From assembly GCA_001003475.1 (NCBI GenBank), contig LCPF01000001.1:37910-101909 (forward strand): a DNA stretch of 64,000 bases. The letters run 5' to 3'. The position numbers were made by a program, and so were the translations under genes. Shown here in pieces: positions 6,405 through 16,932 of the stretch. The notes under the pieces are model-generated. The model had not been told where the DNA came from and searched no databases. It saw only the letters and a program-made list of their open reading frames with translations. The DNA comes from Candidatus Jorgensenbacteria bacterium GW2011_GWA1_48_11 (lineage in GTDB: Bacteria; Patescibacteriota; Minisyncoccia; UBA6257; GWB1-50-10). The stretch's first letter is position 1. Each line of letters begins with the position of its first letter.

Positions 6405-6475
6405 TGCCGGGTCGTCTAACGGTAGGACCGCAGACTCTGGATCTGTGTATCTAGGTTCGAATCCTAGCCCGGCAG
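6405..6475 (+). tRNA. tRNA-Gln (anticodon CTG)
   Basis: Hand-folded cloverleaf: 7-bp acceptor stem (TGCCGGG/CCCGGCA), D-arm, anticodon stem GCAGA/TCTGT with loop CTCTGGA (U33, CTG, G37), 4-nt variable loop, and T-arm CTAGG-TTCGAAT-CCTAG. 71 nt; no encoded CCA. Confidence 0.75.
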
Positions 6476-6515
6476 CACTCGAAACTTTTTATCCCAAGAC
6501 CGAGAGGGGTAACAG

Positions 6516-9356
6516 CTAACTCAAAAGACCGCGCTTCACCACAACCGCTCTTAAGGTGGAGAGGTCGTCTTTCAGCTCAAATGACTTTTCTAATCGCGGG
6601 TCGTTTGCGATACCAGCCCAAAAAGCAAGCTTTGCTTTAACTTCTTTATCGTCTACATGCGATTGTTTTGTTATTGAGATAAGCGTCTCAAGGGGCATGT
6701 ATAGACCATTGTTTACTTCTGAACCAGAGAAAAACGGATCGCCCTTAAGCACGTCATCAAGGTTTTTCCACCCCTCTTTAAGGGGATACTTACTCCAGTA
6801 CAATTTTATAGCTCCGGGATGTTGCTTTAGTCCTCTACGTGCAGCATTTCGGATTTTATTAATCTCGTTCGTCGCCTCCTTAGATCCCGACCAACTTTGA
6901 TAAAGGACGTAGAAGAAATTTTCCTCGTATTTATAAATAATTTTCTTCCCAAGAAAATATCTTGCTTGCAAATCTTCAAAGACCGATTTTATAGCGTTCT
7001 TAACATCTTGATCGAAGTATTTTAACAGCTTGTCAAAAGCGGCTTCTAAGCGCTGATGTATGGAGCTACCACTACCACGTTCATTATTAGCTAGAGAATT
7101 TAATACAATATACTTCGCGCCAATATTTACAGATGACGAACTTAAAATCTTCTTCAAGATTTTAAGAACAGATTTTAGTCCTTCATCCGCTTTTTCTCCA
7201 CTTTTGTCTTTTTCAATCACGGATAGGATTTGAAAAACAAATTGGTAGATAGCCTCATCATATTCAGTGTCCCCAACGTTCATTGGTTGCAGAACAATCT
7301 TTCCATTCACAAGTCGTTTCCCTAATTCGTCCATGATCCTAATATTCAAATCCTCAGAAACATCCCACATTTCATGCACAAATCTTGCATATCCAACCAA
7401 GTCTTTGTTATTTAGCGTCGAGAGAGTCTTGTTGGATTTATCACTCTGGTGCTGTTGGTAAATTCGGCTGTATTTTCTATATCCCGTCTCAACACTTTCT
7501 GAAACCAACGAGAGATAATCGTGCATTATTTCTGGGTATGACGTGGTCCCAGAATATTGAATTTTGTTTTTTGTGTCATAACTTCTTTGCAGAAAATCAA
7601 GATAATAATGCATAACAAGTCCGATATATTTCTCAGTATTAATTTTTTCCTCATCCGAAAGCGTCCTTCCAATAATTGATTCAACCCAACCAATCAGTCC
7701 TGTCTTTTTTTCCTCCAATTCTTTCTTAATAAGATAACCGCCTAAATTGTCTTTTTCTGTTTGTGCAATAAGTAAATGGATTGTTTTCATAAAAAATTCG
7801 ATAAGAAATGGATGCTGGATCTTGATAAATTCCAACATAGTAACGTCACTAAATCGAATCGCATTTACCTTTTGTCCACCACTTCTGTCCCTAAACGATC
7901 CATAGAAAAACTCCAGGGCGGTAGAAACTCGAGCAACTACTCTAGGCGACTGCTCGGCAAGAACTCCAACCACGTAACCCATGGCGTCACTGTGTTTTCC
8001 CATGAAGGAAATGTTTGGGTGTGAAAAGGTATGTGGATAAATTTCTGTAGGAGTATCAACGCCTTCACTCTTCGCGATATTTGTTAACAAATCGTCGACA
8101 TATTTATATCTAATTAGTGGCTCAACTGGTGGAAGAAATATTCTCTGCACAACACTTTTCGGATCGTCATAAAAGAAGGTTTGCAGCGGCCGAACACGCG
8201 AATCTACGCTTTCGAATGTCTGCAAATGCTTTCTAAATTCTGGCTCTGAGATACAAAAAATAAAAATCAACTTTATGGGAAGGCCAGATCTTCCTTCGTT
8301 TTTGAAACGCTCAACAATTTCAACGAGGCGATATATTTCATCAAGCTGTCCTCGCTCAATCTCATCCACCATGATAATCCATAGCAACTCTTTAATTTCA
8401 GGAATATTTCCAAAAATCCTACCGACTATTTTTGAGGTAAATACTTTCTTGTCACCGTAAAATTGATCGTATGCGACGGCCCTTGTTTTTATCAACCCCC
8501 AATTAAAAAGCGACAGTATCTTGAGAAGGTCCGACAAAAGTCCATTTCCTGATTCTCGAAGAATTGACTGCATGAACGGAAGATACGATGCGACATCCAA
8601 TTTGGGGTATCTTTCTGTGAGGGTTTCGATCCAACGTTCCGCAAAAAGCCTAGAAAAATCTTTTGCCTCATTTGTTTCCGTAAGCGAAATATAGGTATAT
8701 AAAGTTTTTATTGGATCGAAGTTTTCGATAATCATCCTTGCATAAGACGACTTACCAAAACCAAGTCCTCCATAAATTCCAACAACATTCACATAATTAT
8801 TGAGTTTTTTAAGGCCGCTTGCCGCGTTCTTTGCTGAGGGTTCAAAAGTTAGCTTGTCATCTTTTGGTCCGACCGCCCCCGCGGCAAAGTTTCTAAAGGT
8901 AAGATCGGGAGATTGACATAAATGCTCGTTCAGCTTTTTTAAGAGCATTGTTATCAGTGCCAGCACTAGGCCGATCCAGCAATATCCTGACAACCAAAAT
9001 TCAGTCGGGTGGGCTATTAAGGCGACGGCCGACCACAGGATTAGACCATTCACAAACCCCCAATAAAAATAGAAAACCCATGAAGGCTGGTTGTGTAGCC
9101 CTTGCTTTTTTAACTGAGCCGCTGGTCTTATAAAAAAATGGATTAAACCAATGACAATCAGTAAAGCGAGAGTACCAAGAACAATGAAGATGGTTTGGTT
9201 TGCATAAAATAAATCCGTAACTAAATCCCGGATTGGAGGTCCAAATTTATAAAACAAGAGGAAGTTAAGGAACGAGATGGAGACAACCCAAAACAACCTC
9301 CACGCAAAAAGGTGTTTGTAGAATATGTCAAGCCCCGGCAGTGATTTATCCTCCAT
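6516..9356 (-). CDS. membrane-anchored P-loop NTPase, KAP/STAND-like (946 aa)
   Basis: Four predicted N-terminal TM helices. Walker A GGLGFGKSS (GxxGxGKS) about 45 aa after the last TM, and Walker B IIMVDEIER (hhhhDE). A roughly 500-aa alpha-helical C-terminal region. AT-rich relative to flanking genes. Confidence 0.6.
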   Translation of the reverse strand: MEDKSLPGLDIFYKHLFAWRLFWVVSISFLNFLLFYKFGPPIRDLVTDLFYANQTIFIVLGTLALLIVIGLIHFFIRPAAQLKKQGLHNQPSWVFYFYWGFVNGLILWSAVALIAHPTEFWLSGYCWIGLVLALITMLLKKLNEHLCQSPDLTFRNFAAGAVGPKDDKLTFEPSAKNAASGLKKLNNYVNVVGIYGGLGFGKSSYARMIIENFDPIKTLYTYISLTETNEAKDFSRLFAERWIETLTERYPKLDVASYLPFMQSILRESGNGLLSDLLKILSLFNWGLIKTRAVAYDQFYGDKKVFTSKIVGRIFGNIPEIKELLWIIMVDEIERGQLDEIYRLVEIVERFKNEGRSGLPIKLIFIFCISEPEFRKHLQTFESVDSRVRPLQTFFYDDPKSVVQRIFLPPVEPLIRYKYVDDLLTNIAKSEGVDTPTEIYPHTFSHPNISFMGKHSDAMGYVVGVLAEQSPRVVARVSTALEFFYGSFRDRSGGQKVNAIRFSDVTMLEFIKIQHPFLIEFFMKTIHLLIAQTEKDNLGGYLIKKELEEKKTGLIGWVESIIGRTLSDEEKINTEKYIGLVMHYYLDFLQRSYDTKNKIQYSGTTSYPEIMHDYLSLVSESVETGYRKYSRIYQQHQSDKSNKTLSTLNNKDLVGYARFVHEMWDVSEDLNIRIMDELGKRLVNGKIVLQPMNVGDTEYDEAIYQFVFQILSVIEKDKSGEKADEGLKSVLKILKKILSSSSVNIGAKYIVLNSLANNERGSGSSIHQRLEAAFDKLLKYFDQDVKNAIKSVFEDLQARYFLGKKIIYKYEENFFYVLYQSWSGSKEATNEINKIRNAARRGLKQHPGAIKLYWSKYPLKEGWKNLDDVLKGDPFFSGSEVNNGLYMPLETLISITKQSHVDDKEVKAKLAFWAGIANDPRLEKSFELKDDLSTLRAVVVKRGLLS

Positions 9357-9463
9357 CTAAATATGAACTTCCTTGATTTCTATCTGCGATTTTCCTTCTT
9401 TTCTTGGTTGCTGGAAATTTATCAAAAGACCATCTTTGATTTTGAGGATTTTCATGTAATTTT

Positions 9464-10570
9464 TTATTTTCTCTCAAGTTCCTCAAGCGGAGGATAGGTT
9501 TTTTGTTGGCCTGCGATAAGCTTCGGCACCTCTTTGCCCTCTCCAAGCGCTAGTAATCCCCTGAGTCGTAAATCAATAACTCCGACGTCCATGTACATAT
9601 CCTTATAGGATTTGTAACGTTTTTTCCACGCCTGGTGATGCGCATGAATTTCGGATTTCAAATCTCCAGCAAGCGTTAACAGCTGATGAGCTACGCCGTT
9701 AACTTTGTCGCCATACTCATTTCCTGCCAGATATTTGTAGACTTCGTTTACGGCCCTCATTTTCTCGGCATTGGATAACTTCAGTAGTGCGATCCGCACC
9801 AAGCTTTGCCGCAAAACATATGTGACTGGCTCAACATTTACGGGGCTGATGACAAATACCGTGTTGGAAACGAAATAAGACTGCCTCTTAGCCGGAAAAG
9901 CATTGGTAACGAGAACCGCGAAGTTAGCTTGCCTGAATTCGCGCGCGTCAGCGGCCTGCTGGACATGGTTCTGGCTGAAAGACTTAACCTTTTTGCATTC
10001 GTAAACGATCTTACCGACAGGCTTATCCTGCTCCATAACGGTTTGAATAATATCCCCGCCCTTCCCCGGATGGTCGAAGTGGTCGTGCGGAAATAATTCC
10101 TTAAGTTTTGCTAGAAGCTTGTCTTCTTCGAGTAAGCCTTCAATCTGTGGCGTAATTCCTTTTTCCATTTGCTCTCTCAGGCGTTTTATTTCTTGATCGC
10201 CCTTCTCTTTTTTCTCCAAAGCGATTTTCAAGCTTCGCTCCAATTGCCCCATTTTATTCTTAGTCTGGGCAACGCCTTTCGCGGTTTGCGTTTCCAATTT
10301 CTTCTTAAACGTTTCCTGGTCTAGTTTCCGCTGTTCACGGAAGTTGGCGGCAAGTTTGTGTTTTTCTTCTGCTACGGCGCGCTTTGCGGCACGCTGCAAT
10401 TCAGCCTTCTCTTTTTTCCATAATTCGGCTTTGCGCTTTAATTCTTTTCGCTCCTCTTCGAGGTGTTTAATCTCTTCATGTTTCGCTTTCCAAATACCGA
10501 GGGCTTTATCATATTCCTCCTGAGTCAACGGCTTACCGCATACGGGGCATTTTTTTGTTTGGTTTTCCAT
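9464..10570 (-). CDS. DUF2130-like protein: N-terminal CPxCG zinc-knuckle, long coiled coil, C-terminal PD-(D/E)xK-like domain
   Basis: KCPVCGKPL at the N-terminus; about 130 aa of K/E-rich heptad-like sequence; C-terminal GGDIIQ...(18 aa)...YECKKV fits a D...E-x-K nuclease motif. Confidence 0.5.
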   Translation of the reverse strand: MENQTKKCPVCGKPLTQEEYDKALGIWKAKHEEIKHLEEERKELKRKAELWKKEKAELQRAAKRAVAEEKHKLAANFREQRKLDQETFKKKLETQTAKGVAQTKNKMGQLERSLKIALEKKEKGDQEIKRLREQMEKGITPQIEGLLEEDKLLAKLKELFPHDHFDHPGKGGDIIQTVMEQDKPVGKIVYECKKVKSFSQNHVQQAADAREFRQANFAVLVTNAFPAKRQSYFVSNTVFVISPVNVEPVTYVLRQSLVRIALLKLSNAEKMRAVNEVYKYLAGNEYGDKVNGVAHQLLTLAGDLKSEIHAHHQAWKKRYKSYKDMYMDVGVIDLRLRGLLALGEGKEVPKLIAGQQKTYPPLEELERK

Positions 10571-10583
10571 AGATATAGTTGGA

Positions 10584-11393
10584 TTACGCCGTGTCTATTT
10601 CTTTGGCGACTTTCTCGATTAAAGATTTCAATGAAACCCGGTCAAGCGTAATTATTTTTTTTGTCCCATAAATAAGGTTGAGCTCTTTCATTAAATCCCT
10701 AATTTTCTCTCTAGATTGTGCAAATTTCTTGTTCCCCCCGAGGTATTCAAGGACGGTAATAAGTATTCGGTCAGACCGCCCCATGGCGCGTTCAAGAACC
10801 TGCTGATAGATATCCTGCATTGAAAGGAGGATGCGGGTGAAATAGTATGGGTCCTTCTTTTTCAAATCGCCGAAGAAACCCGGATCGCGCTCCCACGGCG
10901 CGTAAGTGAGATGGGCGGCCCACCAGAGCCGCGCGATGGCGTGCCTGCGCAAGTCCCGGTCGTTCCCCCTTACAAACCAGTGCTCTAAAAGCTGGTTGAT
11001 GGCGCGCTGCTTGGCGTCGTCTGTTTTGAGGTCTTTGTATTCTCCGGGCAGGCCCCATCGTACAAGTGAGTACTTGCGGAATTCGACGTGGCTTAGGTAT
11101 GCCCAAAGCCTCGGATCGGAAGCCTGAGTTTCGTCTATGGCGCCGTAAAACTCATGGAGAGCTATGGCATTTTCTAGGTCTGTAGCGACCGGGTCCCTCT
11201 TTAGAGCTTTCAAGAATGGGGATTTACCTTGAACGGGGATTGTCGAAAGGAGTAGGTCCTTGTCTTTCACAGGATAGGAATGTTGGAAATAAGTCTTAAG
11301 AGAACTGCCGGAGCGCAGATCGGCCCTCATTTGCTCGATGACCGCCCGCTTGAAGATTTTTTGGTATTGGGTTTTATTCATACTCTCGTTCAT
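10584..11393 (-). CDS. hypothetical protein (island gene C, 269 aa, Trp-rich)
   Basis: Complete ORF that overlaps by 20 nt the 3' end of the upstream ORF 11374..12222 (gene B), which suggests translational coupling; no recognisable domain; conserved-looking WAYLSHVEF...RLWWAAHLTY segment. Confidence 0.55.
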   Translation of the reverse strand: MNESMNKTQYQKIFKRAVIEQMRADLRSGSSLKTYFQHSYPVKDKDLLLSTIPVQGKSPFLKALKRDPVATDLENAIALHEFYGAIDETQASDPRLWAYLSHVEFRKYSLVRWGLPGEYKDLKTDDAKQRAINQLLEHWFVRGNDRDLRRHAIARLWWAAHLTYAPWERDPGFFGDLKKKDPYYFTRILLSMQDIYQQVLERAMGRSDRILITVLEYLGGNKKFAQSREKIRDLMKELNLIYGTKKIITLDRVSLKSLIEKVAKEIDTA

Positions 11394-12222
11394 CGTTGGT
11401 CTCGAGCAACGACCCTATGCTTTGGAATCCCCGTGAGACGGGGTTGTCGAGAATTTTCTGCGCAACATCAAACGGGTCCTTGTCCCTAAGGCCCTTACCG
11501 TCAAGGATGGCCTCCAAACGGCCGAACCAGCTCATGTCCGCGTAGTCGCCGTTCCCGTTCTGTACTTGGTGCACCGCATCGATCAAGACTGGGAAGACTA
11601 TGGAAGCGTGCAACATCCCCTCTGCGAGCTTCTGGCCCCTGACATCCATGTAACTCTGCCAATCGGTTTTTGAAAGGATGACGGTAATTTTCTCGCCTTC
11701 ATAGTCGATCTGCATTGGCCCTTCGTGATGGCTGCCCACTACTATCGACATGAAAGACGAGACCGGTGGCCGGAGAGGATCGAAATTCTTCTCGGCTATG
11801 AACGAAGTGTACCCTCCGACTGCGAGGACATCACCCGCTTCTACGTCGAAAGATGCTCCTTCGTAATCTGGATGGCATTCGCTCGGCTGGTAGCCGGGGA
11901 TGTCCTTGTCGGCGCACACGTAGAAGCCAACCGCCACTCTTTCGCGGACCAGTTTCGACGGAATCATGAACCTGTCGATTGTTTTCCTCGTAGAATAGCT
12001 TGACCGGAAGAAAGTGCTTTGGCATTCGACTTCAGTCACGAATGACGCCTTTCCGTCCCGGATCAGCTCCTCGATCTTCGCGTTCTTCAAATTAAATATC
12101 GGGTTCAGCGTAATCTCGTCTTTTTTTAGTTCATAATGGAAGGGAGCGACGCGGAAAAAACCGCCGAGGTCGTCTTCGTTGCCAAGCACCGGATGCGGGT
12201 ATGATTTTGAATTAACCCTCAT
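11374..12222 (-). CDS. hypothetical protein (island gene B, 282 aa)
   Basis: Complete ORF that overlaps by 11 nt the 3' end of the upstream ORF 12212..13324 (gene A); no recognisable domain; possible metal-binding SHHEG patch. Confidence 0.55.
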   Translation of the reverse strand: MRVNSKSYPHPVLGNEDDLGGFFRVAPFHYELKKDEITLNPIFNLKNAKIEELIRDGKASFVTEVECQSTFFRSSYSTRKTIDRFMIPSKLVRERVAVGFYVCADKDIPGYQPSECHPDYEGASFDVEAGDVLAVGGYTSFIAEKNFDPLRPPVSSFMSIVVGSHHEGPMQIDYEGEKITVILSKTDWQSYMDVRGQKLAEGMLHASIVFPVLIDAVHQVQNGNGDYADMSWFGRLEAILDGKGLRDKDPFDVAQKILDNPVSRGFQSIGSLLETNDEREYE

Positions 12223-13324
12223 AGCTTTCTATGCCTAAGGCATATTTTTTCCTCGACTCGAGCCTCACGGCAAGGCGGATGGTCTGCCCGTTCTTAATGG
12301 AAAGGCCCTTGATCATAGATCCATCTGTTTCATATTTCGCCTTGGAGTCGATGTCCGTCGCTGATTTTATTTCGGCTGGATAGCTGTTGTCGTCGCCGAC
12401 CGCCACCAGCCTTATCCCTCCTTCGCACTCCTCGCGGCCCGTGATTGCGAAATGGTATTCGGGGCCTTCTTTCGTTTTCTGGATGAAGCTCCGGAAGGAT
12501 ATTGCGGAGGTTTTTATCCTGACGCCTTCTTCCCCTCCCGCTTCCGGCCCGGTCGGCCTTCCATGCGGCCCTTTGCCTGGGCCTTTGGGTGGCGTGCGCT
12601 TCACCCCTCCCGGCTCCTTGTTCGTAACTATGCTTTTCCGGATGACTTTTTCCACGTCCGCAGGGGATTCTTCTTTATTCGCGCCGACTTCGCGCCCGCT
12701 TTCCTGGGTTCCTTCCAGGTCGGTCGGATCGAACGCGGCCCCTTGCTGCGGAAGGTAGTCCCTGTCTTCATTGTCTGGCAGGTACTTATCCAACCCCGGG
12801 ATGTCCTGAGGTTCAGTAGTAACGGTCCCTCCCATGCTTTTCAACGATTCCTTTATGAAATCGTCCAGCTCGTGCATGGCCGCCCATCCGTTCTTGGCCC
12901 GGTCCCTGTCCCATTTATCGTGGGCGGGCGGCTCCATGTCTCGGAGAAGCCTGTTGCCGCGCTCGTCGTCACAGATGAAGACTCCGGCGTAAGGCTCCCT
13001 CAGCACGCGGGATGCTTTTTCCGTAACGAGCATTTTCGGCTTCCGGACCATCATGACTTTGCTGGGGTAATTTTCCTGCTTGCGCACGAAAAGCAGGACC
13101 TTCCCGAGGTGCTTCAACTCCTGTTCGAATTTCTGCTCCCAGTTCGTGGCCGCTTCGTAGAAGAATTTCGCGTCCTCCGCATCGAATTCGCTGAACTTCT
13201 CCGGTAGGTTGTCCTTCGTTATGCGGATTTCAGAGCCGTCCTTGACCACTACTTCAAGGTCGCCGTGAAGGATGGCAAGCCAAAAATTTTGAACGCACGC
13301 ATAGAAAGAAACTACCGCATTCAT
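12212..13324 (-). CDS. hypothetical protein (island gene A, 370 aa, with central Gly/Pro/Glu-rich disordered linker)
   Basis: First gene of the island operon. Globular N- and C-terminal parts are separated by a low-complexity segment KEPGGVKRTPPKGPGKGPHGRPTGPEAGGEEG. No recognisable domain. Confidence 0.55.
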   Translation of the reverse strand: MNAVVSFYACVQNFWLAILHGDLEVVVKDGSEIRITKDNLPEKFSEFDAEDAKFFYEAATNWEQKFEQELKHLGKVLLFVRKQENYPSKVMMVRKPKMLVTEKASRVLREPYAGVFICDDERGNRLLRDMEPPAHDKWDRDRAKNGWAAMHELDDFIKESLKSMGGTVTTEPQDIPGLDKYLPDNEDRDYLPQQGAAFDPTDLEGTQESGREVGANKEESPADVEKVIRKSIVTNKEPGGVKRTPPKGPGKGPHGRPTGPEAGGEEGVRIKTSAISFRSFIQKTKEGPEYHFAITGREECEGGIRLVAVGDDNSYPAEIKSATDIDSKAKYETDGSMIKGLSIKNGQTIRLAVRLESRKKYALGIESYEG

Positions 13325-13453
13325 TTTAAGAACAAATACGAGAAGGCGGTTGTATTAAACGCGGAAAAGCTAACCGCACGGCAAATCTCCAACAAGATAT
13401 TGAAAGATCTTAGATACTGAACCAGAGAACGCGGCACTAAAAACTTCTCATCC

Positions 13454-13484
13454 CAAAAACCGGGATGAGCTGATTTCCCCGGTT
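13454..13484 (-). terminator. intrinsic terminator of the 13483..14295 membrane-protein gene
   Basis: On the minus-strand RNA: CCGGG-(13-nt loop)-CCCGG followed by UUUUU. The hairpin overlaps the stop codon. It separates this gene from the island operon, whose promoter region is 13325..13450. Confidence 0.5.
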
Positions 13485-14295
13485 ATTGGGTTATTCCGCT
13501 CAGTGCCCGCTCTTCCGCGGTTTTTCTGAACTGCGGCGTGAAATGACAAAGAATAAAAACGTAAGCGGCGAATTTGAAAATATGCCCCAGCATGTTGTGA
13601 AAGTAGTAAGCGCCGGGATAGAGAGTGAATTGGAATTCGCTGAAGATCGTGAAAACGAAAAAAAGCAGAAAATAATAAGGCGGGACGGCGCCCAACTTCC
13701 TGCTCTCATACCAATAAAGAAAGGCGGTCGCCGCAAACAGGAACATCAAGAAAATTTCGACTTCTATTTTCACGATGGTCAGGCCGAAAACTTTGGCCAT
13801 TGACGGCAATTGGGGAACGAAATAATAAACAGCGAGAAAAACGGCCATAGCGACCACGAAAGCGATCGCCACGCTTCCCGCAATGCTTAACTTGGATCTC
13901 GTTGAAGGCTTTATAAACACGCTTATCAAGAGTCCGGCCGCGACAATGAACCTCGCCGTAAGCCAAAAATAAATGGCGGTGTTTACCGTCGGGAAAATGA
14001 TCGTTTGGGGCATTCCGCCGTAGCTTAGAATATGCAGGATGTCGATCACGGCGGACGCAAGAAAAACGATGCAGAAAACCAAAGAACGCGCGCTTTGCGT
14101 AATCTGATAAGCGGAAAAGGCATAGAGGCCGATGACGAGAGCCACGGCAACGGTGAAAAATTCAACCAAGGCGTGGAAACCGAGATACCACATCCCGAAT
14201 TCGTAATAAAAAGCGCTGGGCTTGACGCCGGTTATAAGGATGACAGCAAGGGCCACAATGGCAAAAATCCAAAAATTTTTGCGCGAAATAATCAT
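13483..14295 (-). CDS. polytopic integral membrane protein (about 7-8 TM, sensor-domain-like, no output domain)
   Basis: 270 aa, almost entirely hydrophobic helices; no catalytic motif. Confidence 0.5.
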   Translation of the reverse strand: MIISRKNFWIFAIVALAVILITGVKPSAFYYEFGMWYLGFHALVEFFTVAVALVIGLYAFSAYQITQSARSLVFCIVFLASAVIDILHILSYGGMPQTIIFPTVNTAIYFWLTARFIVAAGLLISVFIKPSTRSKLSIAGSVAIAFVVAMAVFLAVYYFVPQLPSMAKVFGLTIVKIEVEIFLMFLFAATAFLYWYESRKLGAVPPYYFLLFFVFTIFSEFQFTLYPGAYYFHNMLGHIFKFAAYVFILCHFTPQFRKTAEERALSGITQ

Positions 14296-14344: not shown

Positions 14345-16932
14345 CTAACCGGGATTTCTGGCGAATACAGTCCTCGCCAAAAGCTTCCTTACTTCTTCAA
14401 GCAAAAGGATCGAAGCGGCAATCGAGGCCGCGTAAACCCATTCCCAAGCGGTAAGCGGCACCGTATGCAGGAATCGCTGCATAAAAGGATGATAAACCGC
14501 CAAGAACTGCAGCCCGATTATCAAAATCGTCGCACCGACCAAAAACATGTTTTTGAAAGGATTGATGGAAAAGACAGATTTGTCTTCACTCTTGCAATTC
14601 CACGCGTTGAACCACTGGAAAACCGCAAGCGTGGTCAGGGTCATAGTGAGCGCTTTCTCCAAATCACCGTCAAGGTACTGCCTAAACACAAAAAGAGACC
14701 CAAGAGCAATAATGATTCCCATAAACACCATTCGCTTCATCGCGAACGAATCAAGAATATACCTGGCGGGCTTCGCATAGCGGCGGCCGAGCAGGCCGTC
14801 CTCCCGCGGCTCCATCGCGAGCGAGACGTCGAGGAAGCCGTCGGTGACGAAGTTAAGCCAGATAATCTGAACCGGCAAGAGCGGCAGGGGGAGCCCCATG
14901 AACATCGCGCCGGAAATGGTAAGCACCTCCCCGATGCCGGTCGAGAAAAGATAAAGAATAACCTTCCTAATGGTCTTGTAGATATTCCGGCCCTCTTCAA
15001 CGGCGGAAATGACGCTCCCGAAATTGTCGTCCAAGAGCACGAGGTCGGCGGCTTCCTTGGCCACCTCGGTGCCGATTTTTCCCATCGCCACGCCGAGATC
15101 GGCGGCCGCGAGAGAAGGCGCATCGTTTACGCCGTCGCCGGTCATGGCAACCACCTCGCCCCGTTTTCTGAACAGCTCGATGATCCGCATTTTATGTTCG
15201 GGGGTCACGCGCGCAAAAACATTGCAGATTCCGAATTTTTTCGACAATTCTTCATCCGAGAGCTTTTCCAATTCTTCTCCGGTGATGACGCCATCCTTCC
15301 CATCCGCAAGCCCCGCTTCTTCCGCAATCGCACGAGCGGTAATCTTGTGATCCCCGGTGATCATCACGACCCGGATGCCGGCCTGTTTGGCCCTTTCGAT
15401 GGCGCCTTTCACTTCTTCCCGCAACGGGTCTTTCATGCCGAAAAAACCGCCAAAAATAAGCGGCGGCAATTTTCCGCTAGTCACGGAGTCGCCCGCGTCC
15501 GGGTTGATCGCAAAAGCGAGAACCCGAAAACCCCGCTGGGACATGTCGAAAAATACGGCTTCGAGCCCTTCTTTTTCAGCGCCGGAAAGTTTCTCTGATT
15601 TCTTCGCTCGCCAGACGCGATCACAAAGCTCGAGGATCTTTTCCGGCGCGCCAACAACGGTCAGAAAATTCCTGTTTTCAAACCTGTGAATCGTAGCGTG
15701 ATACTTGGTGAGATAATCGAAAGGCAGTTCGGCTATCTTGGGTGATTCCTGCTCGCCATCCCTGAAGCCGATCTTGCGGCCGAACACTCCCAAGGCCGCC
15801 TCGGTCGGGTCGCCGGACACTTTCCAGATATTCTTTCCTTCCACATACATTGCATGAGCATTGGAGCAAAACAAAGCAACTCTTCCCGCCAGCACAAGCT
15901 CCGGATGATTCAATGGCTCGACGGCCGCTCCCTTCAGGAGCACTCTTCCTTCCGGCTCATAGCCGCGCCCCTCAACATCAAATGTCTTTCCGTCAACATA
16001 CACTTTCTCAAGCGTCATCTCATTTTTAGTGAGAGTGCCGGTTTTATCGACGGCGATGATCTTCGCCTGCCCCAACGCCTCGACTGCCTGTAATTTCTTA
16101 ACCAGCACATTGCGCTTAGTCATGCGCCACACTCCCGAAGCCAAAACCAGGGTCATGACTATCGGCAGGCCTTCCGGAATAATCGAGACCGCAAGAGACA
16201 CCACGGTTGCGAACATCTGCCTCAACGATTCTCCGGCGGCAAGACCAAAAACCATAAGAACGGTTCCGATCGAAAACACGGTGATGATGATAAGGCGGGA
16301 AAGACAACAACCGCCTTGCCGTTGCCGCTTGCGATATTGGTACCCTTGAAAATCATGTTCCTTTGGTCATACGCAGAAATGCGAATATTGCCCAACGCAT
16401 CGCTGGTCTTTAAGACCGGAACAGACTCGCCGGTAAGGCTAGCCTCATTAACGCGGAGGGAATTGACGGAGATAAGTCGGGCGTCGGCGGGAATTTTATC
16501 GCCTTCCTGAAGAATGACGACGTCACCGGGAACAATTTCCTTGTCGGGTACGATCATGATTTTACCGTCCCGCAACACCGAAGCGGAAGTCTCCACGAAT
16601 CTCCGGAGAGCCAGCAACGTATATTGAGCTCTTCCTTCCTGAATTGTTCCCACGATCGCGTTGAATATGAGGACCAGGAAAATAATGACCGCATCAGCGG
16701 TCTCGCCCATGAATAAAACAACCGCCGCGGCGGCCATCAAAACATAGATGAGCGGGCTTAAGAACTGCGAAAGAAATATGGAAAATACGCCGGCGACTTT
16801 TGGTTCCGGGAGAGAATTGGGGCCATACCCGACAAGACGCTTACTGGCCTCTTCAAAACTCAGCCCCGATTCGTCAGAATCGAGTTCTTCAAATATCTCC
16901 GACGGTCGTTTCGCATACCAACGAATACTCAT
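14345..16932 (-). pseudogene. P-type cation-transporting ATPase (type II, Ca2+/Mg2+-like) split by a frameshift or small deletion near 16300
   Basis: ORF 16222..16932 encodes the N-terminus, the first TM pair and the actuator domain (LTGESVP), then runs out of frame after GNGKAVVV. ORF 14345..16279 encodes the rest (DKTGTLT phosphorylation site, MITGDHKITA, GDGVNDAPSLAAADLGVAMG, C-terminal TM helices). Its upstream in-frame extension (LSRLIIITVFSIGTV) is the expected M3 helix. About 20 aa of the expected ATG..T..GKIA..TPLQ segment appear to be missing. This could instead be an assembly error. Confidence 0.5.

What the first reader, a model, noticed from the sequence alone, without database searches (positions are those of the whole stretch)
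10584..13324. Three translationally coupled genes (A-B-C) with no recognisable domains form the first part of the island operon
Gene A (370 aa) has two globular parts joined by a Gly/Pro/Glu-rich disordered linker (KEPGGVKRTPPKGPGKGPHGRPTGPEAGGEEG). Gene B (282 aa) begins MRVNSKSYPHPVLGNEDD and has a SHHEG patch. Gene C (269 aa) is Trp-rich (HWFVRGNDRDLRRHAIARLWWAAHLTY). The 11- and 20-nt overlaps imply stoichiometric co-expression, as for subunits of a complex. These three genes have a much higher GC content than the NTPase and DUF2130 genes next to them. The island therefore looks assembled from at least two sources.
Basis: partly seen in the sequence, partly recalled or inferred. Interest (0 to 1): 0.7.

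Follow-up and report, generated by a model that had tools for sequence, protein, structure and literature searches.

The report
Beheaded remnant of MORC-like defence cassette
The three overlapping genes are real and conserved, but they are the tail end of a larger, already catalogued but untested candidate anti-phage cassette, and this genome's copy has lost its DNA methylase, a small partner gene and the ATPase head of gene A, so it is most likely a disabled leftover.

Summary
The ORFs, their 11- and 20-nt overlaps, the quoted peptides and the GC contrast are all present. "No recognisable domains" is wrong. A, B and C match the PADLOC candidate system PDC-M33 (A/B/C), which is untested, and C is Pfam DUF6339.

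In 27 of the 32 other distinct loci the cassette sits with a C5 DNA methyltransferase, often with Vsr. In 28 of them a conserved 72-aa gene (S) lies directly upstream of A. In close relatives a serine recombinase precedes the methyltransferase.

The 64-kb window has none of these parts. Homology to the closest intact element runs from A codon 262 through B, C and the DUF2130 gene. DUF2130 therefore shares their source, and only the low-GC NTPase looks foreign.

The same junction appears in other assemblies. The genes are under strong purifying selection, with no speed-up in this lineage.

Best reading: a recently decapitated, probably inactive copy of a methylase-linked, paraMORC-type restriction-like system in a Candidatus Jorgensenbacteria (CPR) genome.

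The parts
12212..13324 (-). A' : 5'-truncated gene A (370 aa). Residues 9-370 correspond to residues 262-623 of the ~623-aa PDC-M33A / paraMORC-like proteins. The first 8 codons (MNAVVSFY) are not homologous.
   Evidence: tblastn of P0001 and P0004 covers window 13300..12215 only, at 80-81% identity and without gaps. The PADLOC PDC-M33A match is to profile 249-625/627. All 11 family-invariant residues of this part (N266 F267 L276 V278 R347 G376 L380 E384 P386 H388 G563 of P0001) are retained.
12824..13300 (-). Retained transducer (S5-like) middle domain of A', including the invariant ExxxH motif (EPPAH).
12527..12778 (-). Gly/Pro/Glu-rich disordered linker of A'.
   Evidence: pLDDT is below 50 for P0001 residues 436-519. 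This stretch has no consensus in alignment A1.
12230..12502 (-). C-terminal beta-sandwich domain of A'.
11374..12222 (-). Gene B (282 aa), full length. Residues ~12-183 form tandem FN3/Ig-like beta-sandwiches and residues 185-277 form a helical bundle. It corresponds to PDC-M33B.
10584..11393 (-). Gene C (269 aa; alternative start at 11381 gives 265 aa). It is DUF6339 and PDC-M33C. It is Trp/Arg-rich and is probably the DNA-binding partner.
   Evidence: Pfam PF19866 E 6.9e-40. PADLOC E 3.6e-35. 72 columns are invariant. Some homologues are fused to the Bac_DnaA_C DNA-binding domain PF08299.
9464..10570 (-). DUF2130 gene (368 aa): Zn ribbon, coiled coil and a PD-(D/E)XK-type domain. It comes from the same ancestral element as A'-B-C.
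   Evidence: Pfam PF09903 E 6e-21. 76% aa identity to the DUF2130 that follows C in L045/L046, and DNA homology runs to its stop codon. D173, E191-x-K193 and C8/C11 are invariant. The family is placed in the PD-(D/E)XK superfamily in PMC3424549.
13303..13482 (.). Deletion junction / spacer between the MASE3 gene stop and the start of homology in A'. It is unrelated to any related element.
   Evidence: DNA homology to L045, L001 and L006 stops at window 13288-13302. blastn and tblastn of the spacer find nothing in the loci or elsewhere in the window. Sequence.
13447..13469 (-). Terminator-like hairpin (10-bp stem plus T tract) just after the MASE3 stop and upstream of A'.
   Evidence: No sigma-70-like promoter was found between it and the A' ATG.
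6516..9356 (-). 946-aa membrane-anchored P-loop NTPase (weak KAP/PifA-like). It is neighbouring cargo of different origin and is not part of the A-B-C module.
   Evidence: GC 0.395, the 0.7th percentile. Weak hits to KAP_NTPase (E 0.018) and PifA (E 1.5e-4). It was found only in copies of this same genome.
6405..6476 (+). tRNA-Gln(CTG) at the far edge of the island, 39 bp from the NTPase stop.
   Evidence: ARAGORN. No att-like repeat of 9 nt or more is shared with the other edge.

Best explanation
A', B and C are the surviving 3' part of a mobile, methyltransferase-linked defence cassette. The PADLOC database lists this cassette as the untested candidate PDC-M33.

The intact cassette in relatives (shown): [serine recombinase] - C5 DNA methyltransferase - (Vsr) - S (72 aa) - A (623 aa) - B - C, sometimes followed by a DUF2130 PD-(D/E)XK protein. 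A is a MORC/MutL-like GHKL ATPase with an S5 transducer domain, a disordered linker and a beta-sandwich. It carries the ExxxH signature described for paraMORC2.

Proposed mechanism of the intact system (inferred): it works like a restriction-modification system. The methyltransferase marks host DNA. An ATP-driven dimeric A clamp, together with S, B (tandem beta-sandwich plus helical bundle) and C (DUF6339, likely DNA-binding), acts on unmethylated incoming DNA. DUF2130 or a still unrecognised active site would supply cleavage.

This genome (shown): a deletion removed everything upstream of codon 262 of A. That includes the recombinase, the methyltransferase, Vsr, S and all ATP-binding motifs.

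Consequence (inferred): one event that removes the methylase and disables the ATPase at the same time is a safe way to lose such a system. The remaining A'-B-C-DUF2130 is then most likely a recent, non-functional or at best crippled remnant. It has not yet accumulated disabling mutations.
For: Identity:
- PADLOC PDC-M33A/B/C and Pfam DUF6339 hits.
- P0001 matches PDC-M33A over its full length.
- PDC-M33 is an untested 'guilt-by-embedding' candidate.

Truncation:
- All ~100 full-length homologues are 610-640 aa.
- The window aligns only to residues 262-623, and nothing in the 64 kb matches residues 1-261, S, Dcm, Vsr or the recombinase.
- The same junction is found in other assemblies at 100% identity.

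A is a GHKL+S5 ATPase:
- Bergerat-motif residues E52, N56, D59, D128, G133, G136 and G168 are invariant, and the other glycines of the third motif (G162, G163, G166) are nearly invariant.
- The ExxxH motif is invariant.

Methylase linkage:
- Dcm lies next to the cassette in 27 of the 32 other distinct loci, and S in 28.
- In the distant loci L040 and L041, Dcm and Vsr sit on the other side of the cassette but are still adjacent.

Mobile and defence context:
- Neighbours include serine recombinases, CBASS, Shedu and other R-M genes.

Other points:
- Shared origin with DUF2130.
- A terminator lies upstream and no promoter-like site was found.
- Other decaying copies exist: L047, L048, L010 and L011.
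Against: - No experiment has tested PDC-M33.
- No nuclease fold was found in A or B.
- DUF2130 is present in only a minority of cassettes.
- The Clostridium (L042) and Lactococcus (L049) cassettes show no adjacent Dcm or S. In Arthrobacter the nearby dcm-vsr pair has its own type II endonuclease. The methylase link may therefore be lineage-specific or due to island co-residence.
- A', B, C and DUF2130 are all intact, keep every invariant residue, and show no rate acceleration relative to intact sisters (chi2 <= 2.6). This fits a recent deletion but equally fits continued function.
- The promoter scan uses an E. coli-type consensus that may not apply to CPR bacteria.
Confidence: 0.65

Rival explanations
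1. The truncated module is still functional. A' (S5 domain, linker, beta-sandwich) with B, C and the DUF2130 nuclease would form a methylase- and ATP-independent complex kept by selection. This could be a constitutive or differently triggered defence or abortive-infection module.
For: - All four ORFs are intact with their overlaps preserved.
- All family-invariant residues are retained.
- Relative-rate tests show no acceleration.
- The truncation falls close to the GHKL/S5 domain boundary, at the start of helix 255-272.
- A new in-frame ATG is present.
- The arrangement is identical in several assemblies.
Against: - GHKL+S5 machines act through ATP-driven N-terminal dimerisation (established knowledge of the family; summarised in PMC2292703), and that domain is entirely gone.
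- S, which is present in 28 of the 32 other distinct loci, is also gone.
- The window is the only one of 33 loci with this form. Other short A proteins are frameshift pseudogenes.
- A terminator lies upstream and no promoter was detected.
- All available copies are 100% identical, so there is no post-deletion divergence on which selection could be read.
Confidence: 0.2
2. The intact S-A-B-C cassette is not a restriction system. It would be a MutL-like accessory to Dcm-Vsr very-short-patch repair, or a methylation-guided DNA-compaction or silencing device that excludes unmethylated DNA without cutting, as in BREX or eukaryotic MORC. The window copy is still a remnant under this reading.
For: - A resembles MutL and MORC.
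- Vsr is often adjacent.
- MutL-Vsr cooperation and MORC DNA looping are discussed in PMC2292703.
- No nuclease fold was recognised in A or B.
Against: - Vsr was detected in only 17 of the 27 Dcm-linked loci, so A-B-C tracks Dcm rather than Vsr.
- The cassette travels in defence islands and on recombinase-bearing elements.
- PADLOC derived it from embedding within BREX, DISARM or type I R-M loci.
- A PD-(D/E)XK DUF2130 gene is attached in this sub-clade.
Confidence: 0.2
3. The junction is an assembly artefact (chimeric contig), and the real genome carries an intact A with S and Dcm.
For: The 2015 groundwater assembly does contain at least one discrepancy nearby: a 91-bp indel at window position 16303 relative to L015.
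Against: - The same MASE3-A'(370 aa)-B-C layout is recovered at 100% identity in separately assembled ENA, Logan and JGI contigs (L015, L016, L019).
- No read-independent sign of a break was seen.
- The flanking terminator and spacer are continuous.
Confidence: 0.03

Closest known systems
PADLOC phage-defence candidate PDC-M33 (Payne et al. 2024 bioRxiv 10.1101/2024.01.29.577857; CAS_00129)
   Same: A, B and C match the three PDC-M33 profiles in the same order and on the same strand. Full-length relatives match PDC-M33A end to end.
   Different: The window's A covers only profile positions 249-625. PDC-M33 is defined as three genes. Here a fourth conserved gene (S, 72 aa) and a C5 methyltransferase (with or without Vsr) are shown to accompany it in most loci. 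PDC-M33 has never been tested experimentally.
paraMORC GHKL+S5 ATPases of restriction-modification operons, especially paraMORC2 (Iyer, Abhiman and Aravind 2008, PMC2292703)
   Same: In relatives there is an N-terminal GHKL domain with intact ATP-binding motifs, an S5 domain, an invariant ExxxH at the C-terminal end of S5, and a neighbourhood with cytosine methylase and Vsr.
   Different: There is no conserved SFII helicase or recognised endonuclease partner. The partners are S, B and C (DUF6339). No Pfam GHKL model detects the family. No direct sequence comparison with published paraMORC2 members was possible. The window copy lacks the GHKL domain altogether.
Eukaryotic MORC3/MORC2, SMCHD1 and bacterial MutL N-terminal ATPase modules
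   Different: Sequence identity is only 8-12%. There are no CW, coiled-coil or hinge domains and no MutL C-terminal endonuclease. A instead has a long disordered linker and a beta-sandwich.
Classical type II Dcm-Vsr restriction-modification modules
   Same: In relatives a C5 methyltransferase (best PADLOC match MTase_II, E 6e-114) and Vsr are directly linked on the same strand.
   Different: The CPR loci have no conventional restriction endonuclease. The S-A-B-C cassette occupies its place. The window has neither methylase nor Vsr.
GHKL-Shedu (VcSduA / paraMORC3; PMC12137116)
   Same: It is a GHKL ATPase used in anti-phage defence together with a PD-(D/E)XK nuclease. In this sub-clade a PD-(D/E)XK DUF2130 gene follows C.
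   Different: In VcSduA the nuclease (DUF4263) is fused to the ATPase and the system is a single gene. No PADLOC Shedu hit was obtained for A, B, C or DUF2130.

Membership tests
PADLOC PDC-M33 candidate system | Significant matches to the PDC-M33A, PDC-M33B and PDC-M33C profiles | tested here: met
   E 4.6e-47, 1.8e-59 and 3.6e-35.
PADLOC PDC-M33 candidate system | The three genes are adjacent, on the same strand and in the order A>>B>>C | tested here: met
   Coordinates 13324..12212, 12222..11374 and 11393..10584, all on the minus strand and overlapping. The cassette order FAM_02818>>FAM_02838>>FAM_01881 is given.
PADLOC PDC-M33 candidate system | Full-length A protein (~627-position profile) | tested here: not met
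   Only profile positions 249-625 are matched. Residues 1-261 are absent from the whole window.
PADLOC PDC-M33 candidate system | Demonstrated anti-phage activity | not testable with these tools
   It is listed among 145 untested candidates, and no paper mentions PDC-M33.
paraMORC / MORC-type GHKL+S5 ATPase | N-terminal GHKL (Bergerat) fold with conserved ATP-binding motifs | tested here: not met
paraMORC / MORC-type GHKL+S5 ATPase | S5-fold transducer domain following the GHKL domain | tested here: met
paraMORC2 (Iyer et al. 2008) | [quoted passage not shown] | tested here: met
   E384-P-P-A-H388 is invariant in 37 sequences and is present in the window as EPPAH.
paraMORC2 (Iyer et al. 2008) | Sequence clustering with published paraMORC2 members | not tested
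   No reference paraMORC2 sequences were available in the tools. Pfam gives no hit for P0001.
paraMORC2 (Iyer et al. 2008) | Operon association with DNA methylase, Vsr, SFII helicase or RE-fold nuclease | tested here: inconclusive
   Methylase is present in 27 of the 32 other distinct loci and Vsr in 18 of them. No conserved helicase was found. A DEAD/ResIII gene occurs only in L001-type loci, 4 kb away. None of these is present in the window.
Restriction-modification system | Cognate DNA methyltransferase encoded with the restriction component | tested here: not met
   No PF00145-type gene anywhere in the window (tblastn and HMM). Present in relatives.
Restriction-modification system | Identifiable endonuclease | tested here: inconclusive
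   No nuclease fold in A or B. C was not modelled. The adjacent DUF2130 has a conserved D...ExK motif but is not universal.
Pfam DUF6339 (PF19866) | Score above the gathering threshold over the full-length profile | tested here: met
   137.1 bits against a cut-off of 23.2, profile 1-174/175.

The most novel reading that the evidence does not exclude
The intact Dcm-(Vsr)-S-A-B-C cassette would be a new class of epigenetically guided immunity, widespread in CPR bacteria. A MORC-like ATP-driven clamp, with partners of no known enzymatic fold (tandem-FN3 protein B, DUF6339 protein C, mini-protein S), would silence or destroy unmethylated DNA. This would be a prokaryotic counterpart of MORC-mediated transposon silencing. 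In addition, the window's headless A'-B-C-DUF2130 might still be maintained by selection as a methylase-independent derivative.
Probability: 0.2. Interest if true: 0.65.

Novelty: new member of a known kind. Interest (0 to 1): 0.33.

Why it matters
For this window the practical point is annotation. The 370-aa 'gene A' should be flagged as a 5'-truncated fragment, and the locus should not be counted as an intact defence system. PADLOC-style three-gene rules would probably call it PDC-M33.

More broadly, the comparison sharpens the description of an untested candidate system:
- It has a fourth conserved gene (S).
- Its large subunit is a MORC/MutL-like GHKL ATPase with the paraMORC2 ExxxH signature.
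- In most loci examined it is coupled to a C5 methyltransferase, often with Vsr, on recombinase-bearing elements that are common in Patescibacteria.

This gives a concrete, testable R-M-like hypothesis for PDC-M33. It also gives a natural example of how such a system can be lost safely, with methylase and ATPase removed in one deletion.

Tried and rejected
- Sequence-profile searches of A, B and C alignments against all PDB sequences gave nothing.
- Pfam and NCBIfam gave nothing for A or B, and Pfam also found nothing for full-length P0001.
- PHROGs gave no meaningful hit and IMG/VR gave no relatives, so there is no evidence of phage origin.
- I suspected from the conserved D/E/K residues that B was a PD-(D/E)XK nuclease. 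The AF2 model is tandem beta-sandwich plus helical bundle, so I rejected this.
- I considered AbiR and Mza from memory as methylase-dependent or MutL-containing systems. PADLOC gave no such hits, so I dropped them.
- I looked for att-like direct repeats between the tRNA-Gln edge and the junction and found none of 9 nt or more.
- The 180-bp junction spacer and its 51-aa plus-strand ORF matched nothing.
- A search for relatives of the MASE3 gene in metagenome contigs, meant to find an empty site, found none.
- Short A homologues P0080 and P0063 were checked as possible natural 'short forms'. They are frameshift-split pseudogenes.
- The AFDB fold library was unavailable.
Full report
**1. Observation**

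Three minus-strand ORFs occupy 12212..13324 (A, 370 aa), 11374..12222 (B, 282 aa) and 10584..11393 (C, 269 aa). A and B overlap by 11 nt, and B and C by 20 nt.

GC is 0.525 for A-B-C, which is the 98th percentile of same-length windows against a window mean of 0.478. GC is 0.458 for the DUF2130 gene and 0.395 for the 946-aa NTPase, the 0.7th percentile. The description is therefore accurate as far as it goes.

The window comes from Candidatus Jorgensenbacteria GW2011_GWA1 (CPR/Patescibacteria). B and C are identical to UY23_C0001G0055 and UY23_C0001G0054 on a 635-kb contig.

**2. The genes have recognisable relatives**

- C is Pfam DUF6339 (E 7e-40).
- A, B and C hit the three profiles of PADLOC candidate system PDC-M33 (E 5e-47, 2e-59, 4e-35).
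- PDC-M33 is one of 145 untested candidates proposed by 'guilt-by-embedding' (Payne et al. 2024). It is defined as cassette FAM_02818>>FAM_02838>>FAM_01881.
- No paper in the library mentions PDC-M33 or DUF6339.

**3. Gene A is a fragment**

The PDC-M33A match covers only profile positions 249-625 of 627. About 100 homologues are 610-640 aa long, and the window protein covers only their C-terminal part.

tblastn places P0001 residues 262-623 on window 13300..12215 without gaps, at 81% identity. Residues 1-261 match nowhere in the 64 kb. The first eight codons of the window ORF are not homologous.

- ParE, GyrB, Topo VI-B and Hsp90, weaker

So A is a GHKL ATPase followed by an S5 transducer domain, a disordered linker (residues 436-519) and a C-terminal beta-sandwich (528-618).

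The Bergerat-fold motif residues E52, N56, D59, D128, G133, G136 and G168 are invariant in 37 diverse homologues, and the remaining glycines of the third motif are nearly invariant. All of these lie in the part the window lacks.

The retained part carries an invariant E384-x-x-x-H388 (EPPAH). Iyer, Abhiman and Aravind (2008) gave exactly this signature for the paraMORC2 family of R-M-associated GHKL ATPases.

**4. What the complete system looks like**

Gene contexts of close and distant homologues were examined. HMM scans were then run over all fetched loci. The recurrent layout is:

C5 DNA methyltransferase - (Vsr) - S - A - B - C.

In close relatives a large serine recombinase precedes this.

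S is a conserved 72-77-aa protein with the motif RTNEVLRRLKILGNCANRSxYDYTEEEV. It abuts or overlaps the start of A. It is conserved as far as an Arthrobacter plasmid (E 8e-25) but is not part of the PADLOC definition.

Counts over the 33 distinct loci (32 without the window):
- The methyltransferase is adjacent in 27.
- S is present in 28.
- The loci without a detected methyltransferase are mostly cut by contig ends or visibly decayed. L042 (Clostridium) and L049 (Lactococcus plasmid) are possible true exceptions.

In the distant loci L040 and L041 (33-34% identity in B), the methyltransferase and Vsr sit downstream of C rather than upstream of S. Linkage that survives rearrangement argues for functional coupling.

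What follows C varies. It can be CBASS (CD-NTase plus Cap15), HNH, PLD, Shedu or DUF2130. This is typical of defence islands.

The B family is large, with 2648 50%-identity clusters at E<=1e-3. No relatives were found in IMG/VR or PHROGs.

**5. What is left in this genome**

The window has no methyltransferase, Vsr, S, recombinase or A N-terminal domain. It is the only locus with available upstream flank in which the A N-terminal domain is missing.

The closest intact element with the same cargo is L045/L046: recombinase-Dcm-Vsr-S-A(623)-B-C-DUF2130(368). It is homologous to the window over 13302..9464 at 75% DNA identity. That span runs from codon 262 of A through the DUF2130 stop codon. The DUF2130 proteins are 76% identical.

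Upstream of 13302 lies 180 bp of unrelated spacer. Before that come a terminator-like hairpin (13469..13447) and the stop of a MASE3-domain membrane protein gene. No sigma-70-like promoter is detected ahead of A'.

The same junction is recovered at 100% identity in separately assembled ENA, Logan and JGI contigs. An assembly chimera is therefore unlikely.

The far edge of the island is a tRNA-Gln gene at 6405..6476. No att-like repeat is shared with the other edge.

**6. The GC 'mosaic'**

The decline A_C > B > C >= DUF2130 is also present in intact relatives: 0.503/0.473/0.451/0.449 in L045 and 0.509/0.509/0.477/0.475 in L001. Together with the shared homology, this means DUF2130 is not from a different source.

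The 946-aa TM-anchored P-loop NTPase is different. Its GC is 0.395, its KAP and PifA similarity is weak, and it is absent from all related elements. It is the real compositional outlier.

**7. Are the remaining genes alive?**

- pN (0.08-0.13) is far below pS (0.7-0.9) against relatives, so these are genuine, constrained genes.
- Tajima-type relative-rate tests against two intact sisters with three outgroups show no acceleration in the window lineage (all chi2 <= 2.6).
- All family-invariant residues are retained.
- All available copies of this genome are identical, so selection after the deletion cannot be measured.

The data fit a recent deletion. They do not exclude residual function.

Other loci show the family decaying by frameshifts: L047, L048, L010 and L011.

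**8. Partner proteins**

*C.* It has 72 invariant columns rich in Arg, Trp and Asp. In some homologues it is fused to the DnaA C-terminal DNA-binding domain PF08299, which suggests DNA binding.

*DUF2130.* It has a Zn ribbon, a coiled coil and an invariant D173...E191-x-K193. Steczkiewicz et al. 2012 place the family in the PD-(D/E)XK superfamily. It is a plausible nuclease for this sub-clade, but it is not universal in the family.

**9. Mechanism**

Shown:
- The domain identity of A.
- The cassette composition.
- The methyltransferase linkage.
- The deletion in this genome.

Inferred from the known behaviour of GHKL+S5 machines and the paraMORC/R-M framework:
- The intact system acts like a restriction-modification system.
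- The methyltransferase protects host DNA.
- An ATP-gated A dimer, with S, B and C, engages unmethylated DNA.
- Cleavage comes from DUF2130 where it is present, or from an unrecognised site.

The window copy has lost the ATP gate, S and the methylase in what looks like a single deletion. Such an event avoids post-segregational killing. I rate the truncated PDC-M33 identity at about 0.95, non-functionality of the remnant at about 0.65, and the R-M-like model for the intact system at about 0.6.

**10. Rivals**

- A still-functional headless module (0.2).
- A repair-accessory or non-cleaving silencing role for the intact system (0.2).
- An assembly artefact (0.03).

**11. Verdict**

It misses three things. 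The set is a known candidate. Gene A is decapitated. The defining partners are gone.

Novelty is that of a degenerate new member of a known, untested kind. The useful by-products are a better definition of that kind: a fourth gene S, a MORC-like ATPase with the paraMORC2 signature, coupling to Dcm and often Vsr, and prevalence in CPR bacteria.

Noticed in passing
window 14345..16932 (minus strand), break near 16303: The P-type cation ATPase is split into 236-aa and 644-aa ORFs. An ENA assembly of the same population (L015) has 91 extra bp at this point and an intact 892-aa gene. The window therefore carries a frameshifting 91-bp deletion or an assembly error.
   Followed up: partly
relatives: L001 9781..9999, L045 7919..8137, L050 6804..7031 and others; absent from the window: A conserved 72-77-aa protein (S; motif RTNEVLRRLKILGNCANRSxYDYTEEEV) lies directly upstream of A in 28 of the 32 other distinct loci, including an Arthrobacter plasmid. 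It is not in the PADLOC PDC-M33 definition and has no Pfam, PADLOC or PHROG match.
   Followed up: yes
window 6516..9356 (minus strand): A 946-aa protein has N-terminal transmembrane segments and a P-loop (GGLGFGKS). Similarity to KAP NTPase (E 0.018) and PifA (E 1.5e-4) is only weak. Its GC is very low (0.395). It was found only in this genome among all fetched loci, so it may be a separate abortive-infection-type gene.
   Followed up: partly
window 6405..6476 (plus strand): tRNA-Gln(CTG) lies 39 bp from the NTPase stop and marks one edge of the ~7-kb island (6477..13482). No att-like repeat was found at the other edge.
   Followed up: partly
window 13483..14295 (minus strand): A 270-aa protein consists only of a MASE3 membrane sensor domain, with no output domain, and is followed at once by a terminator-like hairpin. 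It is unclear whether it is a stand-alone sensor or itself a truncated sensor kinase. No relatives were retrieved from metagenome contigs.
   Followed up: partly
window 13265..13420 (plus strand): A 51-aa ORF (…KNKYEKAVVLNAEKLTARQISNKILKDLRY) lies antisense across the junction and the A' start. It has no significant Pfam hit and no match in the fetched loci. It is probably spurious, but it could be the 3' relic of a gene destroyed by the rearrangement.
   Followed up: partly
homologues P0252, P0259, P0262 (C family): Some DUF6339 proteins are 370-383 aa and carry a C-terminal Bac_DnaA_C (PF08299) DNA-binding domain. This hints that C is the DNA-binding subunit.
   Followed up: no
L006/L013/L043 downstream of C; L045 1912..3346: In relatives the cassette is followed by a two-gene CBASS (CD-NTase plus Cap15). 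In L045 a diversity-generating-retroelement-like pair (RVT_1 plus bAvd) sits a few kb upstream. CPR mobile elements therefore stack several defence modules.
   Followed up: no
L047, L048, L010, L011/L012: Several metagenomic copies are decaying. A and B are split by frameshifts (L047). Dcm and the recombinase are reduced to fragments (L048). L010 has multiple stops, B is truncated, and L011 has only a Dcm remnant. This suggests frequent loss of the system.
   Followed up: partly
L049 (Lactococcus lactis plasmid NZ_CP065734.1) and Ligilactobacillus salivarius megaplasmids: A-family homologues (~30% identity) occur on dairy and gut lactic-acid-bacteria plasmids, next to IS6 elements and an AlwI-type R-M system. 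These are culturable hosts in which the family could be tested.
   Followed up: no
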